This document shows, piece after piece, positions 1,187-60,568 of a DNA stretch of 64,000 nucleotides; position 1 is the first letter of the stretch; each line of letters opens with the position of its first letter. A program made the translations under genes and the position numbers. A model generated the notes under the pieces. The model made no database searches. It worked only from the letters and a program-made list of their open reading frames with translations, and was not told where the DNA came from. Source of the stretch: Eledone cirrhosa (lineage: Eukaryota). Location of the stretch: NCBI GenBank assembly GCA_964016885.1, contig OZ024745.1:106764001-106828000 (forward strand), given 5' to 3'.

Positions 1187-2005
1187 GGCGGTGGATTGGC
1201 AGTATTGGTAGAGCATCGGACAACATACTTTCAGTCATGTAGTTTCGGTCCTTTACGGTTGGAGTTCAAATCCCATCGATGTTAGCTTTGCCTTTCATCC
1301 TTATGGAGTCGATGAAATAAAGTACCAGTCATGCACTGGGGTCGATTTAATCGACTTTCCCCTCCCCAAAATTGATGGACTTGAGCCTAAATCAGAAACC
1401 ATTATTTTGGCAGTGGATTGGCAGTATCGGTAGAGGGTCGGACGCCATGCTTTCCAGCATAGTTACGTCCCTTTACGATCTGAGTTCAAATCCCGCCGAG
1501 GTTGACTTTGCCTTTCATCCTTACGGGGTCGATAAAATAAAGTACCAGTAATGCACTGGGTAATTGCTGGCCTTTTGCCTAAAGTAGAAACAATTATTTT
1601 GGCAGTATCGGTAGAAGGTCGGACGCCATGCTTTGATGCATAGAGTTACGCCCCTTTCAATTCTGAGTTCAAATCTCACCGAGGTTAACTTTGCCTTTCA
1701 TCCTTACGGGGTCGATAAAATGAAGTACCCGTAATGTACTGGATAATTGCTGGCCTTGTGCCAAAAGTAGAAACAATTATTTATACAAAAAAAAAAAAAG
1801 AGGTAGATTGACAGTATCGGTTGGGGGTAGGACAACATAGTTTGAGGCATGTAGTTATGACCCTTTAGGGTCTGAGTTCAAATCCTGCCGAGGTTAGCTT
1901 TGCATTTCATCATTACGAGGTTGATAAAATGAAGTACCAGTAACTCACTTCGGTCGATTTAATTGACTTTCCCCATCCAGTCAAATTGCTGGCCTTGTGA
2001 AAGTA
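1187..2005 (+). mobile_element. Head-to-tail array of four tRNA-derived SINE copies (main family)
   Basis: Unit: ggtggattggcagtatcggtagag (A-box-like)...gagttcaaatcc (B box)...gcctttcatccttacggggtcgataaaataaagtaccag...gctggccttgtgccaaaagtagaaacaattat. The central domain resembles, from memory, the MetaSINE core. Confidence 0.85.
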
Positions 2006-12860: not shown

Positions 12861-13592
12861 AGAGTGGTCAGTATAGCTAATAGTTAGTAATAAAACAGAG
12901 CTACGTGGAGTAGAGTGGTTATTATGACCGCTCCATGTACTAATTAGCAATAGAACAGAGCCACATAAGCACGGTGTACTAATTAACAAGAGAACATAGC
13001 TACATGGAACAGAGTGGCTATTGTGACCACTCCATGTACTAATTAGCAAGAGAACAGAGCTACATGTAGCAGAGTGGCTGTTATGACCGCTCCATGTACT
13101 AATTAGCAATATAATATAGCTACATGTGACAGAGTGGCTATTATGAACGCTCCATGTACTAATTAGCAAGAGAATATAGCTACATGAAACAGAGTGGCTA
13201 TTATGACTGCTCCATGTGAAAATTAGCATTATAATATAGCTACATGGAGCAGAGTGGCTATTATGACCGCTCCCTGTTCTAATTAGCAATAGAACAGAGC
13301 TACATGGAACAGAGTGGCTATTATGACCGCTCCATGTACTAATTAGCAATAGAGCATATTATGACCGCTCCGTCTACTAATTGTTTCTACGTTTGGCACA
13401 AGGCCAGCAATTAACCAGTACATTACTGGTACTTTATTTTATCGATCCAGTAAGGATGAAAGGCAAAGTTAACCTCGGTGGGATTAACTTTGCTCCATGT
13501 ACTAATTAACAATAGAACAGTGCTACATGTAACATAGTGGCTATTATGACCGCTCCATGTACTAATTTACAATAGAACAGAGCTACATGGAG
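12861..13592. repeat. 60-bp minisatellite, about 10 units, interrupted by a truncated SINE (13379-13493)
   Basis: Unit agagtggctattatgaccgctccatgtactaattagcaatagaacagagctacatggaac; rows 13021-13321 align in register. Confidence 0.9.
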
Positions 13593-27304: not shown

Positions 27305-27994
27305 TTACAACCTGTGCAACCAAATGGTTAATAATATACAGGAAAGCACCAATAGATTTGTAAACATTGTAGGTCCCAATGGCAACATTCCTGAAAATCT
27401 ATCATCGTATATTCTAAGATTTGTTCGGTTGCGACCATTTTTAGCAATCTCTGGATTTAAATTAAGAAGGTCCTGCCAGGCATTGTATGCAGCTGCTGTG
27501 AAGTTGTTATCGCCAGTGGTCATCAAATCAAAGACACAAGAGTCGAAGTAGAAACCTGCAACATTGGCATCACGACATGCCATTTCAGCTTCGACTCTCA
27601 ACATGGCAACTTTGTTTTTTATTTCGTATTCCTTGAGTTTCTCTTGTCGCTGAGCAAGAAATTTTTGGTAATTAATTTGTTGCGTCTTTGGACAGCCATT
27701 GACACACAACTCGGGTTGTTCATCAGGTGTAGATGATTGTGCAATTTCCTCAGGCATTCGAATCGAAAATGTAAAGTAGCGGCCAATGTGACGAACTAAA
27801 ATTGTAGTGTCAATGTATTTTATATGGATTTTGACGTATTTCGAAGGTTCTAGCACCTTTATTTCAATTCCTTTGCCGTGTCCGTAGTGTGTGCTTCCAC
27901 CTTCGAAGGTATTCGGCAAACTGCGTTCATGGGTGACGTATGTTATAGGTCTACTTGATCCACATTTATCGTTTTTTTTTATCATGACGGTTAA
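27305..27994 (-). CDS. RGM: Terminal coding exon of a repulsive guidance molecule (RGM/hemojuvelin family) gene: C-terminal vWD-like domain plus GPI-anchor signal
   Basis: 229-aa open frame LTVMIKKNDKC...SLPNTFEGGS...YVKIHIKYIDTTILVRHIGRYFTFSIRMPEE...LCVNGCP...C...FYFDSCVFDLMTTGDNNFTAAAYNAWQD matches RGM_C motifs I recognise (IxVRQxGRYLTFAIRMPE, LCxxGCP, YFQSCVFDLLTTGDxNF). Hydrophobic C-terminal tail LLVLSCILLTIWL*. Preceded by a polypyrimidine tract and acceptor ttctctttcatttcag|TTA (AG at 27996-27995), phase 0. Confidence 0.93.
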   Translation of the reverse strand, partial: LTVMIKKNDKCGSSRPITYVTHERSLPNTFEGGSTHYGHGKGIEIKVLEPSKYVKIHIKYIDTTILVRHIGRYFTFSIRMPEEIAQSSTPDEQPELCVNGCPKTQQINYQKFLAQRQEKLKEYEIKNKVAMLRVEAEMACRDANVAGFYFDSCVFDLMTTGDNNFTAAAYNAWQDLLNLNPEIAKNGRNRTNLRIYDDRFSGMLPLGPTMFTNLLVLSCILLTIWLHRL

Positions 27995-28049
27995 CTGAAA
28001 TGAAAGAGAAAAAATAACATTGTAATATAATGATGATAATAATAATAAT

Positions 28050-37837: not shown

Positions 37838-39040
37838 GGTGGTGGATTGGAAGAATTAGTAGAGCGTCGAGCAAATTGTCTTATGATATTTAGTTAACTC
37901 TACTTTATATTCTATCAAGTATTTTTATGCACGAGTCGAGTTAACCCAAGCCAATCCCCACCTCTAGTTTCGACAAAAATAACTGGAATAACACCATGAT
38001 AGGTTGGTGATTGGCAGTATCGGTAGAGCGTCGAACAACATGCTTCGTGGCATATAGTTCTGAGTTCAAATCCTGCCGTGGTTAGCTTTGCCTTTTATCC
38101 TTGAGGGAGTCGATAAAATAAAGCACCAGTAGTTCACCGCTGTCGAATCAATCGACTCCCCCTTCCCCTCAAATTGCTGGCCTTGTGCCTAAATTAGAAA
38201 CCATTATTATTATTATCCATTCTAGGGTGGTGGATTGGCAGTATCGGTAGAGCGTTGGACACCATGCTTTGCAGCAGAGAGTTAGGCCCTTTATGATCTG
38301 AGTTCAAAACCGGCCGAGGTTAGCTTTGCCTTTCATCGTTAGGGGTCGATACCTAAATCAAAAACCAGACTCCATGCTGTTTAACAGAGTTATGGCCCTT
38401 TACGTTCTGAGTTCAAATCCCGCCGAGATTAACTTTGCCTTTCATCCTTGCGGGGGTAGATAAAATAAAGTACCAGTCATGAACTAGGGTAATTGCTAGC
38501 CTTGTGCCAAAAGTAGAAACAATTATTATTCATTCTAGGGTGGTGGATTGGCAGTATCGGTACAGGGTCGGACACCACGCTTTGCAGCATAGAGTAACGC
38601 TCCTTTACGGTCTGAGTTCAAATCCCGCCGAGGTTAACTTTGCCTTTCATCCTTACGGGGTGGATAAAATAAAGCACCAGTAACGTACTGGGGTCGATTT
38701 AACCCCCCCCCCATTACTGGCCTTGTACCTATATAAGAAACCATTCGTCCAGCATAGTTACGTCTCTTCACGGTTAACTTTGCCTTTCATCCTTACGGGG
38801 GTGGATAAAATAAAGCACCAGTAACGTACTGGGGTCGATTTAACCCCCCCCCCCCATTACTGGCCTTGTACTTATATAAGAAACCATTCGTCCAGCATAG
38901 TTACGTCCCTTTACGGTATGAGTTCAAATCCCGTCGAGGTTAACTTTGCCTTTCATCCTTACGGGGTCGATAAAATAAAGTACCAGTAATGTACTGGGTA
39001 ATTGCTGGCCTTGTGCCTAAAGTAGAAACAATTATTATTA
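37838..39040 (+). mobile_element. Head-to-tail SINE array with an internal ~135-bp duplication
   Basis: Several copies. ggttaactttgcc...gtggataaaataaagcaccagtaacgtactggggtcgatttaac(C)n attactggccttgtac.tatataagaaaccattcgtccagcatagttacgtc occurs at about 38632 and about 38772. Confidence 0.8.
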
Positions 39041-45745: not shown

Positions 45746-46033
45746 CAGTCTACGAGGGACAAACTAGTATTTATTACAATACCATTCAGTCTACGAGGGA
45801 CAAGGGGACTGACTAGTATTTATTACAATACCATTCAGTCTACGAGGGACAAGGGGACTGACTAGTATTTATTACAATACCATTCAGTCTACGAGGGACA
45901 AGGGGACTGACTAGTATTTATTACAATACCATTCAGTCTACGAGGGACAAGGGGACTGACTAGTATTTATTACAATACCATTCAGTCTACGAGGGACAAG
46001 GGGACTAACTAGTATTTATTACAATACCATTCA
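45746..46033. repeat. 49-bp minisatellite (5 near-identical units plus one 41-bp unit)
   Basis: cagtctacgagggacaaggggactgactagtatttattacaataccatt starting at 45787, 45836, 45885, 45934 and 45983. Confidence 0.95.
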
Positions 46034-47468: not shown

Positions 47469-47857
47469 ACAATATATTAATAAATGGAAACTATATTTAT
47501 AAAACTATATTTATTTTATGATATATATATATTTCAAGGGCAACCAAGGCAAATTATGGTGCGCTTTCATCAGATAAAATACAGATTTGTTTTATAAATA
47601 AATATTGACATACCCGGAAAAAAGACAACCTTAACGGTTGAGGATAGTGGAGATAATATTTTATTGCGGGTAATCGAAATATCTCCACCATCCAGGAAGC
47701 TTCAACCGTTAAGGTTGTCTTTTTTCCGGGTATGTCATTTATTTATAAAACAAATCTGTATTTTATCTGATGAAAGCGCACCATAATTTGCCTTGACATA
47801 TATATAATAAAATAAATATGGTTTTATAAATATAGTTTCCATTTATTAATATATTGT
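47469..47857. repeat. Long fold-back inverted repeat (about 170-bp arms) carrying HHR-A; Penelope-like pLTR remnant
   Basis: acaatatattaataaatggaaactatatttataaaac...gacatacccggaaaaaagacaaccttaacggttga is mirrored by tcaaccgttaaggttgtcttttttccgggtatgtc...gttttataaatatagtttccatttattaatatattgt. Confidence 0.9.
47512..47581 (-). ncRNA. Type I hammerhead ribozyme motif (HHR-A), complete
   Basis: Minus strand: uauuuuau-CUGAUGA-aagcgca ccauaauuugccuugg u ugcccuu-GAAA-uauauauaua-UC-auaaaaua. Stem I is 8 bp and perfect. Stem II is aagcgca/ugcccuu (1 mismatch) plus cca/ugg. Stem III is an alternating-AU palindrome. Predicted AUC cleavage between 47520 and 47519. Confidence 0.75.
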
Positions 47858-59426: not shown

Positions 59427-59470
<44 letters not shown>

Positions 59471-59514
59471 TATGTATGTATACGTACATACATATATGTA
59501 TACAGACGTACAGT

Positions 59515-59574
<60 letters not shown>

Positions 59575-59707
59575 TGCACGTATCGGTTTACCGAACATTT
59601 ATTATAATGCTCGGTTTGTTTGTTTGTAAACAAACAAACAAAGCCCGAATTACGCTGTACAGTGTTTAGGCAACCACGTCACCTTTTTGTTCAACACTGA
59701 CACAGGA

Positions 59708-59750
59708 ACGATGTACTAGTTTCAAGCTTATTAGCTATCGTCAGCATCGT
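59708..59750 (-). ncRNA. Minimal type I hammerhead ribozyme motif (HHR-C), Penelope-type
   Basis: Minus strand: acgaug-CUGACGA-u agcu aaua agcu u-GAAAC-ua-GUA-caucgu. Stem I is 6 bp and perfect, stem II is 4 bp, and stem III is reduced to the palindrome ACUAGU. Predicted cleavage between 59714 and 59713. Confidence 0.82.
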
Positions 59751-59869
59751 ATACCTTCCTGCCAGATGGTTGAACGTCTGAAAGTATATACTTTCCTTAT
59801 GCATATTAACGGCTGAGCAGCCTAATTTGCATATCGAGTGAGATCAGTCGGCCGGGCACACCGAAAACG

Positions 59870-60021
59870 ATAAATGGAATAGAATGAAACGAAATTTCAT
59901 TTCTCACTCTTAGTACGGCACTTACTTAAATGTAAGTATGTATGTATACGTACATATATATTTAAGTAAGTGCCGTACTAAGAGTGAGAAATGAAATTTC
60001 GTTTCATTCTATTCCATTTAT
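59870..60021. repeat. Perfect 62-bp inverted repeat with 28-nt spacer
   Basis: 59870-59931 ataaatggaatagaatgaaacgaaatttcatttctcactcttagtacggcacttacttaaat is the exact reverse complement of 59960-60021. Confidence 0.92.
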
Positions 60022-60568
60022 ATATATATATATAGAATAACCAGTTATCGTTATAGGTAATCCATCAAGCGATTAGCGAGCTCTAGACCTACCAGATCAA
60101 CGAAACAATTGTCAGCACTGTGAATAAAGCCCTTATTGTACAGCCAACCATGTTACTCTTCTTTAAAATTATAATGATATTATAATGAAATAGTATGGTA
60201 GAATATTAAGTCTTAAATGTTAATCGAACAAGTACTTTCATGATTTCGGAATGTTCAGGTTCATATTCAGTGGTGACAGTCAAGCCTGCAATTTTAGCTC
60301 TCTTTCTTTCTCTCTGTATATATATAAGAGAGAGAGAAAGAGAGAGATATCAAGTAGAATTGAAGACAATGTTACAGCATATTTACAAAGTTTATAGTCA
60401 TATTGCAACTGTACAAATATGCTGCAACACTGAGTTCGATGCTACCTACTTGATCTATTTACACTCTGCGCACTACAGCCGTCTTAACTCTGGAATACAA
60501 CTCATACGAGACGGACCTCAACAGTATTGAATGCTTCGAACGGCGCGCCGCCTGAAACTGTAAACACA

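What the first reader, a model, noticed from the sequence alone, without database searches (positions are those of the whole stretch)
59708..59750. HHR-C: textbook minimal hammerhead with no antisense partner nearby
Seen: perfect stems I and II, CUGACGA/GAAAC core, GUA site and palindromic ACUAGU stem III. Established: minimal PLE hammerheads with palindromic stem III cleave efficiently mainly as dimers. It lies in a unique-looking island (about 59575-60021) between (TA)n tracts and is a different family from HHR-A and HHR-B. It is the best candidate for real activity in the window.
Basis: partly seen in the sequence, partly recalled or inferred. Interest (0 to 1): 0.72.

Follow-up and report, generated by a model that had tools for sequence, protein, structure and literature searches.

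The report
Hammerhead ribozyme in common octopus retroelement
A hammerhead (self-cutting RNA) motif lies on the minus strand inside one copy of a very common repeat of a likely octopus genome; the repeat is likely a protein-less Penelope-type jumping element and this lone copy is predicted to cut poorly without a partner, so it is an ordinary new member of a known kind.

Summary
The motif is real but on the MINUS strand (59750→59708): intact core, 6-bp stem I, palindromic AC-UA-GU helix III; 1 of 500 shuffled windows gave such a match. Stem II is not perfect: 4 bp with U opposite U at its base, a known natural variant. The island is not unique: 9,673 contigs of one run and 0.58% of the reads of another lie on it. 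The four best-supported variable places in the motif spare the core and keep stem I paired. The carrier is a ~466-bp unit between (TA)n tracts with a 24-nt terminal direct repeat and a head-to-head inverted 65-bp piece, the layout of Penelope-like element (PLE) insertions; read joints show it at other copies. No ORF or autonomous partner was found. Best reading: a solo copy of an abundant non-autonomous PLE derivative (retrozyme type) whose ribozyme is predicted to need a dimer. It probably lies sense in the last intron of an RGM gene. Cleavage and expression are untested. New member of a known kind; interest 0.25.

The parts
59708..59750 (-). Type I hammerhead motif: stem I 59750-59745/59713-59708; core 59744-59738; U (59737) opposite U (59724); stem II 59736-59733/59728-59725 with loop AAUA; GAAA 59723-59720; palindromic helix III 59720-59715; A17 at 59714; predicted cut between 59714 and 59713
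   Evidence: Sequence, descriptor scan, shuffle control 1 of 500, pair probabilities stem I 0.56-0.93 and stem II 0.90-1.0 in the 297-nt context
59689..59775 (-). Predicted extension of stem I through internal loops, with an unpaired U at position 1.7 (59707)
   Evidence: Fold prediction; an unpaired U1.7 contacting the last A of loop II is described in PMC11875169 passages; the contact is untested here
59574..59869 (-). Body (H) of the carrier repeat, hairpin-rich, with AATAAA at 59603-59598 on the minus strand
   Evidence: High depth in runs X1 and X23; 170 X1 contigs run from 59574 into simple repeats; folding z -5.4 (minus) and -4.65 (plus) against -1.65 to +1.89 for 12 control folds; AATAAA
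59870..59934 (-). Segment S, joined to H in other copies too; likely the optional terminal 'tail' of the PLE template
   Evidence: 6 of the 8 listed X1 pieces cross 59870 with 7-20 other letters (table 8); the tail role is inferred from PMC8557442
59957..60021 (+). Inverted second copy of S (64 of 65 nt), head to head with the main copy, ending in (TA)n; makes a 152-nt hairpin
   Evidence: Inverted repeat I1, alignment
59933..59956 (.). Right copy of an exact 24-nt direct repeat; likely the 5'-truncated start of the insertion
   Evidence: Exact 24-mer found only here and at 59467-59490 in the window
59467..59573 (-). Simple-repeat-like spacer that ends in the left copy of the 24-nt repeat (59467-59490); sets a 466-bp period; likely the 3' end of the insertion, followed by (TA)n
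   Evidence: the order S-spacer-H on the plus strand is also seen in 94 X23 reads from 8 starts (joint 59935 to 59574, letters between not known)
27308..27994 (-). Context, not part of the element: last coding exon of an RGM (repulsive guidance molecule) gene; its upstream exons are not in the window, so the motif likely lies sense in the last intron
   Evidence: Pfam RGM_C E 1.3e-48; 85% identical to Octopus sinensis RGM; acceptor site at 27995 and no tblastn match for aa 1-531 better than E 3.8

Best explanation
The motif is a minus-strand type I hammerhead inside one solo copy of an abundant ~466-bp repeat that is likely a non-autonomous Penelope-like (retrozyme-type) element of an octopod, and this copy is predicted to cleave poorly alone because its palindromic helix III would form only with a second copy. 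Shown: the motif, the high copy number, the partial-tandem plus inverted layout in (TA)n, and variation among copies that keeps stem I paired. Inferred: tandem or circular source RNAs fold as double hammerheads (stem I and a 6-bp helix III formed between two copies), cut at GUA, and are reverse-transcribed into TA-rich targets by the RT/GIY-YIG protein of an autonomous PLE. That leaves 5'-truncated copies joined head to head with a short inverted 'tail' piece. This copy would be a passenger in an RGM intron with no partner in cis.
For: Motif and chance control. Copy number: 9,673 of 16,285,364 contigs in X1 and 72,739 of 12,467,656 reads in X23 lay on the 369-bp stretch at >=80%. Variation: of the 40 rows shown (of 83), five fall in the 43-nt motif, at four places: N7 (C to U), loop II, and the two sides of one stem I pair, which by co-tracking read shares reads A-U, U.G or G.U in three groups of copies; none falls on 16 core or helix III positions. 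In X1 all five changes at plus-strand A are accounted for, so U4, both U at the base of stem II, the loop III U and U16.1 have no variant at >=5% of depth. Layout: unique 24-nt direct repeat, 466-bp period; inverted 65-bp S; 6 of 15 shown joints link H cut at 59696-59774 head to head with S (59916-59935), away from the AATT sites of this copy. This matches the PLE signature in PMC8557442: 5' truncation, partial tandem, adjacent inverted copy, tail at one end, microsatellite bias. The S-H junction is shared by other copies, and one X1 contig joins 59877 to 59594 over 9 letters that match 59585-59593 (head-to-tail H), which points to a short master with no ORF. Energies: monomer with a 1-bp helix III -1.7 kcal/mol (P 3.5e-6) against a misfold at -8.5; double hammerhead -20.2 against dimer MFE -20.4 and -17.0 for two monomers. 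U opposite U at the base of stem II is known in natural hammerheads (PMC3088659) and in the axolotl retrozyme HHR_Amex2, which cleaves better as a dimer (PMC7229834). O. vulgaris has 31 recently active Penelope-like families (PMC13282606).
Against: No autonomous PLE or ORF was linked to the family: no RT or GIY-YIG match in 63 of the 134 window ORFs scanned, no genome held, 0 matches in three collections. Absence of variants in the core is weak alone (chance 0.16); 43 rows of the table were not shown, and 12 X1 changes at C, G or T are unplaced. Pairing changes are inferred from marginal read shares, not haplotypes, and in X1 the two sides of the pair do not track (0.63 vs 0.39). The six joints rest on 57-143 reads from 1-2 starts each, in one RAD-seq run, and none of them is listed in the three contig runs; 89 joints were not shown. 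The 24-nt repeat is low-complexity and could be a target-site duplication. Long tandem arrays, the usual mark of retrozymes, were not seen. S (about 65 nt) is longer than the 30-40-bp tail in PMC8557442. Rfam has no hammerhead match.
Confidence: 0.68

Rival explanations
1. It is the 5'-truncated 3' end (pLTR) of an autonomous PLE, such as a Neptune-type element; the ORF is simply missing from this insertion and there is no separate non-autonomous family.
For: Most PLE insertions are 5'-truncated and most min-HHRs occur as single motifs; (TA)n target and inverted piece fit; depth drops about sevenfold at 59840-59865 in X1 and loose ends there differ, so the 5' part of H is heterogeneous.
Against: Six listed X1 pieces with 7-20 other letters cross the same S-H junction, and a head-to-tail H-H joint exists; no ORF nearby; helix I of 6 bp and helix II of 4 bp fit the 'canonical' type better than the min-HHR type of PLE ends.
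Confidence: 0.2
2. This copy is active in vivo, as a protein-assisted monomer or by pairing in trans with another family transcript, and cuts the RGM pre-mRNA in its last intron.
For: Sense orientation to RGM and likely intronic place; intact core; stems I and II form in context; the dimer fold is within 0.2 kcal/mol of the dimer MFE; a PLE hammerhead was protein-assisted in vitro (PMC11167929).
Against: Monomer active fold P 3.5e-6; single min-HHRs showed no cleavage and dimers little; no RNA-seq reads began or ended at the cut site of the anole PLE. A sense intronic place is expected often for a family this common, and an insect-like locus shows the same arrangement beside a neurobeachin exon (L006). 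The intron is inferred, not shown.
Confidence: 0.06
3. The carrier is a DNA-transposon derivative (MITE or foldback) or a chance stack of unrelated fragments in a microsatellite, and the hammerhead is a passive passenger.
For: A near-perfect 152-bp hairpin at 59870-60021; high folding z on both strands; X1 and X4 loose ends show S starting after (TA)n.
Against: The inverted repeat is at one end only; S is joined head to head to H at six different cut points and directly to H in other copies, as 5'-truncated retrocopies would be.
Confidence: 0.05
4. The hammerhead match is chance.
For: No Rfam hammerhead match; the 43-mer folds only at z -1.5.
Against: 1 of 500 shuffles; structure-sparing variation; a 30-of-31-nt identical motif with a different 6-bp stem I in an unrelated contig (L015).
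Confidence: 0.01

Closest known systems
PLE hammerheads with small palindromic helix III (Drosophila virilis Penelope type; PMC4209133)
   Same: Type I, core CUGANGA followed by an extra U, helix III with a 2-nt palindromic insertion, mostly solo motifs, dimer-dependent.
   Different: No G10.1-C11.1 pair; helix I 6 bp and helix II 4 bp instead of short helix I and long helix II; no PLE ORF found beside it.
Non-LTR retrozymes of animals (coral, Mytilus, axolotl; PMC7229834; bioRxiv 10.64898/2026.07.22.740005)
   Same: Non-coding unit of a few hundred bp with one type I hammerhead, GC under 50%, strongly self-paired RNA, high copy number; axolotl HHR_Amex2 has the same U.U at the base of helix II.
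   Different: This locus is a monomer plus a 24-nt overlap, tail and inverted piece; long tandem arrays not seen; unit slightly longer (about 466 bp with a simple-repeat spacer); circular RNA untested.
PLE insertion structure (Penelope/Poseidon, Neptune, Naiad; PMC8557442, PMC11167929)
   Same: 5' truncation, partial tandem, adjacent inverted copy, tail at one end, (TA)n or AT-rich targets.
   Different: Tail about 65 nt rather than 30-40; no ORF. The octopus Naiad families listed there lack canonical hammerheads, and none of ten short motifs of this element matched their supplement, apart from one hit in what reads as coding sequence.
Metagenome contig L015 hammerhead
   Same: 30 of 31 nt identical over core, stem II and helix III, same U opposite U, 6-bp stem I.
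   Different: Other stem I sequence and flanks; 1,075-bp repeat period; followed by short TAACCC repeats.

Membership tests
Type I hammerhead ribozyme | Core CUGANGA ... GAAA ... UH with A15.1-U16.1 | tested here: met
   CUGACGA, GAAAC, GUA, exact
Type I hammerhead ribozyme | Helices I and II form, with the open ends in helix I | tested here: met
   Pair probabilities 0.56-0.93 and 0.90-1.0 in context; pairing kept among copy groups
Type I hammerhead ribozyme | G10.1-C11.1 pair (highly conserved, not obligatory) | tested here: not met
   U opposite U, fixed in the family in X1; the U.U variant is documented in natural, cleaving hammerheads, so this lowers expected rate, not membership
Type I hammerhead ribozyme | Match to a curated Rfam hammerhead model | tested here: not met
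   0 matches at gathering score; none among 90 at E<=10
Type I hammerhead ribozyme | Self-cleavage 3' of H17 | not testable with these tools
   Needs in vitro transcription or RNA-end data
PLE-associated dimeric hammerhead | Short palindromic helix III that pairs only in a dimer | tested here: met
   ACUAGU; double-hammerhead fold -20.2 kcal/mol against -1.7 for the monomer active fold; computed only
Penelope-like element (autonomous) | ORF with PLE-type RT and GIY-YIG endonuclease | tested here: not met
   No such match in 63 of 134 window ORFs of >=80 aa scanned; the island holds no long ORF. Elsewhere in the genome not testable
PLE-mobilised insertion | 5' truncation with partial tandem and adjacent inverted copy, tail at one end | tested here: met
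   24-nt direct repeat, inverted S; 6 of 15 shown joints repeat the pattern, each from 1-2 starts
PLE-mobilised insertion | Microsatellite or AT-rich target | tested here: met
   (TA)n on both sides; 170 X1 contigs leave 59574 into simple repeats
Non-LTR retrozyme | Non-coding unit of a few hundred bp, high copy, one type I hammerhead per unit, strongly self-paired | tested here: met
Non-LTR retrozyme | Tandem arrays with two or more complete hammerheads | tested here: inconclusive
   Not at this locus; one X1 contig shows a head-to-tail H-H joint; array length unknown
Non-LTR retrozyme | Expressed as linear and circular monomer RNA | not testable with these tools
   No suitable run was available

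The most novel reading that the evidence does not exclude
An undescribed, very abundant octopod PLE-derived RNA family whose solo intronic copies pair in trans through the ACUAGU palindrome, so that one transcript licenses cleavage of another. Host pre-mRNAs such as the RGM transcript would then be cut in a dose-dependent way, while the 65-bp S hairpins supply long double-stranded RNA.
Probability: 0.06. Interest if true: 0.7.

Novelty: new member of a known kind. Interest (0 to 1): 0.25.

Why it matters
As a single locus it matters little: one monomer among very many copies. As a family it would extend retrozyme-type elements to cephalopods, where my searches found no report. Its short unit with clear tail and inverted-junction marks is a handy natural template for studying how PLE proteins start reverse transcription and what the hammerhead does for them, which is still open. 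Trans-cleavage of host introns would matter more but has no direct support.

Tried and rejected
Own-genome search: no genome held. Expression: no RNA holder listed among 24 runs; run X4 is of unknown kind and was not used as expression evidence. Exact family patterns: 0 matches in metagenome, viral and prokaryote genome contigs. Relaxed pattern: 108 loci returned, scan stopped at 19 of 64 parts; 111 matches, 24 with stem I >=4 and stem II >=3 (20 with bulged U plus a 10.1-11.1 pair, 4 with U.U). Pfam on 102 ORFs from 45 of 53 hand-picked loci found no RT or GIY-YIG, so this gave no direct PLE link; the 654-aa ORF beside L006 resembles a neurobeachin exon. Five of the 11 opposite-strand joints shown (at 59635 and 59658) were set aside as possible library chimeras because other copies carry the AATT cut site there. 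Rfam miRNA matches at 59870-60021 are all below gathering score and only reflect the long hairpin. An ATG inside the motif opens only a short frame and is lost in most copies (sequence; variant at 59747). Three look-ups in earlier findings returned nothing. The Lunse/Weinberg/Breaker paper on dimeric PLE hammerheads was not held and the PMC7229834 supplement could not be read; either may list cephalopod motifs.

Full report
Observation. The motif lies on the minus strand, 59750 to 59708. It has a 6-bp Watson-Crick stem I, the core CUGACGA, the segment U-AGCU-AAUA-AGCU-U, GAAA, the palindrome ACUAGU and a GUA site. With a descriptor asking for the exact core, stem II >=4 and stem I >=5, the window has 1 match and 1 of 500 shuffles had one. 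Stem II is not perfect: its base is U opposite U. Rfam finds no hammerhead (0 matches; none of 90 at E<=10). No second family copy lies in the window.

Host and place. The window holds the last coding exon of an RGM gene (27308-27994, minus; Pfam E 1.3e-48), 85% identical to Octopus sinensis and 73% to Argonauta, so the host is likely an octopod. Residues 1-531 of that homologue have no match better than E 3.8 in the window, and an acceptor site precedes the exon. The motif, 31.7 kb upstream on the same strand, is therefore probably sense in the last intron. This is inferred; the upstream exons were not seen. Of 134 ORFs of >=80 aa I scanned 63, chosen by eye to lie outside simple repeats; none matched RT or GIY-YIG.

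The island is a common repeat. Laying four runs on 59567-59935 at >=80% gave 9,673 of 16,285,364 contigs (X1), 121 of 762,587 (X4), 6 of 23,643,904 (X5) and 72,739 of 12,467,656 RAD-seq reads (X23, 0.58%). These are not copy numbers; thousands of copies or more is my inference. X1 may be the source sample of the window. Of 83 variant rows 40 were shown. Five fall in the motif: N7 C to U, one loop II change, and both sides of the third pair of stem I. By strand-split read shares in X23 (0.54/0.50 and 0.05/0.06 for one group; 0.34/0.27/0.31 and 0.84/0.81/0.76 for another) the pair reads U.G or G.U in two groups of copies and A-U in this copy's group (11-23%). These are marginals, not haplotypes, and in X1 the two sides track poorly (0.63 vs 0.39). 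No shown row hits the 16 core and helix III positions, which alone has a chance of 0.16. In X1 every change at plus-strand A is placed, so U4, U16.1, the loop III U and both U at the base of stem II have no variant at >=5%; 12 of 43 X1 changes, at C, G or T, are unplaced. U.U is thus the family state, not decay of this copy.

Carrier anatomy. An exact 24-nt direct repeat occurs only at 59467-59490 and 59933-59956, giving a 466-bp period. In minus sense the insertion reads: 24-nt spacer end, S (59934-59870), H (59869-59574, with the hammerhead and an AATAAA), spacer (59573-59467), then (TA)n. An inverted S (59957-60021, 64 of 65 nt) abuts its 5' end and runs into (TA)n. Other copies share the order: 6 of the 8 listed X1 pieces cross the S-H junction with 7-20 other letters; 94 X23 reads from 8 starts link S back to the start of H; one X1 contig joins 59877 to 59594 over 9 letters that match 59585-59593, a head-to-tail H-H joint. 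Of 15 joints shown (89 not shown), 11 change strand. I set aside five at 59635 and 59658, where other copies carry the AATT at which reads end. The other six join H cut at 59696, 59705, 59728, 59744, 59755 or 59774 head to head with S starting at 59916-59935; each has 57-143 reads from 1-2 starts in X23 and none in the contig runs. H folds at z -5.4 (minus) and -4.65 (plus), against -1.65 to +1.89 for 12 control folds. Both strands fold, so this shows hairpins, not RNA function.

Mechanism. In the monomer the best fold pairs C3-U4-G5 with the helix III loop (-8.5 kcal/mol); the fold with a 1-bp helix III is -1.7 (P 3.5e-6). The double hammerhead, with stem I and a 6-bp helix III between two copies, is -20.2 against a dimer MFE of -20.4 and -17.0 for two monomers. 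These are nearest-neighbour estimates that ignore tertiary contacts and proteins. An unpaired U1.7 and an A ending loop II are present, which PMC11875169 (passages) describes as a rate-enhancing contact; untested here. I infer that tandem or circular source RNAs self-cleave as dimers and are copied into TA-rich DNA by an autonomous PLE, with S as the optional tail, and that this copy is a passenger.

Comparison with the literature. PMC4209133 (parts 1-2 of 4; passages of one supplement file, another not searchable) defines canonical type I motifs (helix I 6 bp, helix II 4 bp, short palindromic helix III) and PLE variants with an extra base after A9; a single motif did not cleave and dimers cleaved weakly; its alignment lists Lottia and Crassostrea and gave no 'Octopus' hit. 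PMC7229834 (parts 2-3 of 6; supplement unreadable) describes retrozymes of 170-400 nt, about 5,000 motifs in Mytilus, and axolotl HHR_Amex2 with a U.U at the base of helix II (22% cleavage in 1 h as monomer, more as dimer). PMC3088659 (passages) reports natural U10.1-U11.1. PMC8557442 (passages and supplement searches) gives the PLE insertion signature and two octopus Naiads with (TA)n preference. PMC11167929 (parts 1-2 of 4) ties the tail to two RT start sites, finds the hammerhead protein-assisted and dispensable in vitro, and finds no RNA ends at the cut site. bioRxiv 10.64898/2026.07.22.740005 (parts 1-3 of 5) argues that retrozymes are non-autonomous PLE derivatives, with 42-44% of Xenopus copies intronic and 1 of 9 dimers cleaving. 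PMC6765202 (passages) reviews the dimer model. PMC13282606 (passages; supplement listed, not read) counts 31 recently active Penelope-like families in O. vulgaris and never mentions ribozymes. Searches for octopus with hammerhead ribozyme, octopus with retrozyme, and cephalopod with self-cleaving ribozyme listed no paper devoted to such a family; Repbase, Dfam and unread supplements may hold it.

Related motifs elsewhere. A relaxed pattern returned 108 metagenome loci (partial scan); 24 of 111 matches have both stems, 20 in the bulged-U register and 4 with U.U. L015 matches 30 of 31 nt with its own 6-bp stem I. No RT or GIY-YIG was found in 102 ORFs near them, so these support the motif class but not the PLE link.

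Verdict. Observation partly confirmed; interpretation partly supported. It works like a dimer-dependent PLE/retrozyme hammerhead. Membership as a type I hammerhead motif is met on sequence and fold, with a known U.U variant; it is not an autonomous PLE here; retrozyme membership lacks tandem-array and circular-RNA evidence. Best explanation 0.68. New member of a known kind, interest 0.25. The most novel reading, trans-licensed cleavage of host introns, has probability 0.06 and would deserve 0.7.

Noticed in passing
window 27308-27994 (-): Last coding exon of an RGM gene, 85% identical to Octopus sinensis RGM; upstream exons are absent from the window, implying an intron of 36 kb or more.
   Followed up: partly
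window 59273 (-) and 60102 (+): Two GAAAC-AATT-GTH ends (palindromic helix III) without an intact CUGANGA, pointing outwards on either side of the island; likely decayed hammerheads of other families stacked in the same microsatellite cluster. blastn found no match between the two flanks.
   Followed up: partly
window 47512-47581 (-) and 60225-60263 (-): Weaker hammerhead-like matches: exact core with 8-bp AT-rich stem I but poor stem II; one-mismatch core with palindrome AGTACT.
   Followed up: no
window 59870-60021: A 152-nt near-perfect hairpin (65-bp arms) that would be long double-stranded RNA if transcribed.
   Followed up: partly
L015:747-789: Hammerhead 30 of 31 nt identical to the window's motif, in a contig with a 1,075-bp repeat period and short TAACCC repeats about 60 nt downstream; resembles telomere-linked PLE ends.
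   Followed up: partly
L025, L037, L097 and related loci: A family of hammerhead-like motifs with only 2-bp stem I; these three contigs carry two copies in opposite orientation.
   Followed up: no
L006:2500-2642: Hammerhead-like motif with A10.1-U11.1 about 110 nt downstream of, and sense to, an insect neurobeachin-like exon.
   Followed up: partly
window 1418-1782 and 38632-38917: Tandem pairs of a shared repeat (183 and 143 bp periods) that I recall as an octopus SINE; the name comes from memory, not from a call.
   Followed up: no
window 12975-13358 and 45756-46033: Minisatellites of 60 bp x 6.4 and 49 bp x 5.7.
   Followed up: no
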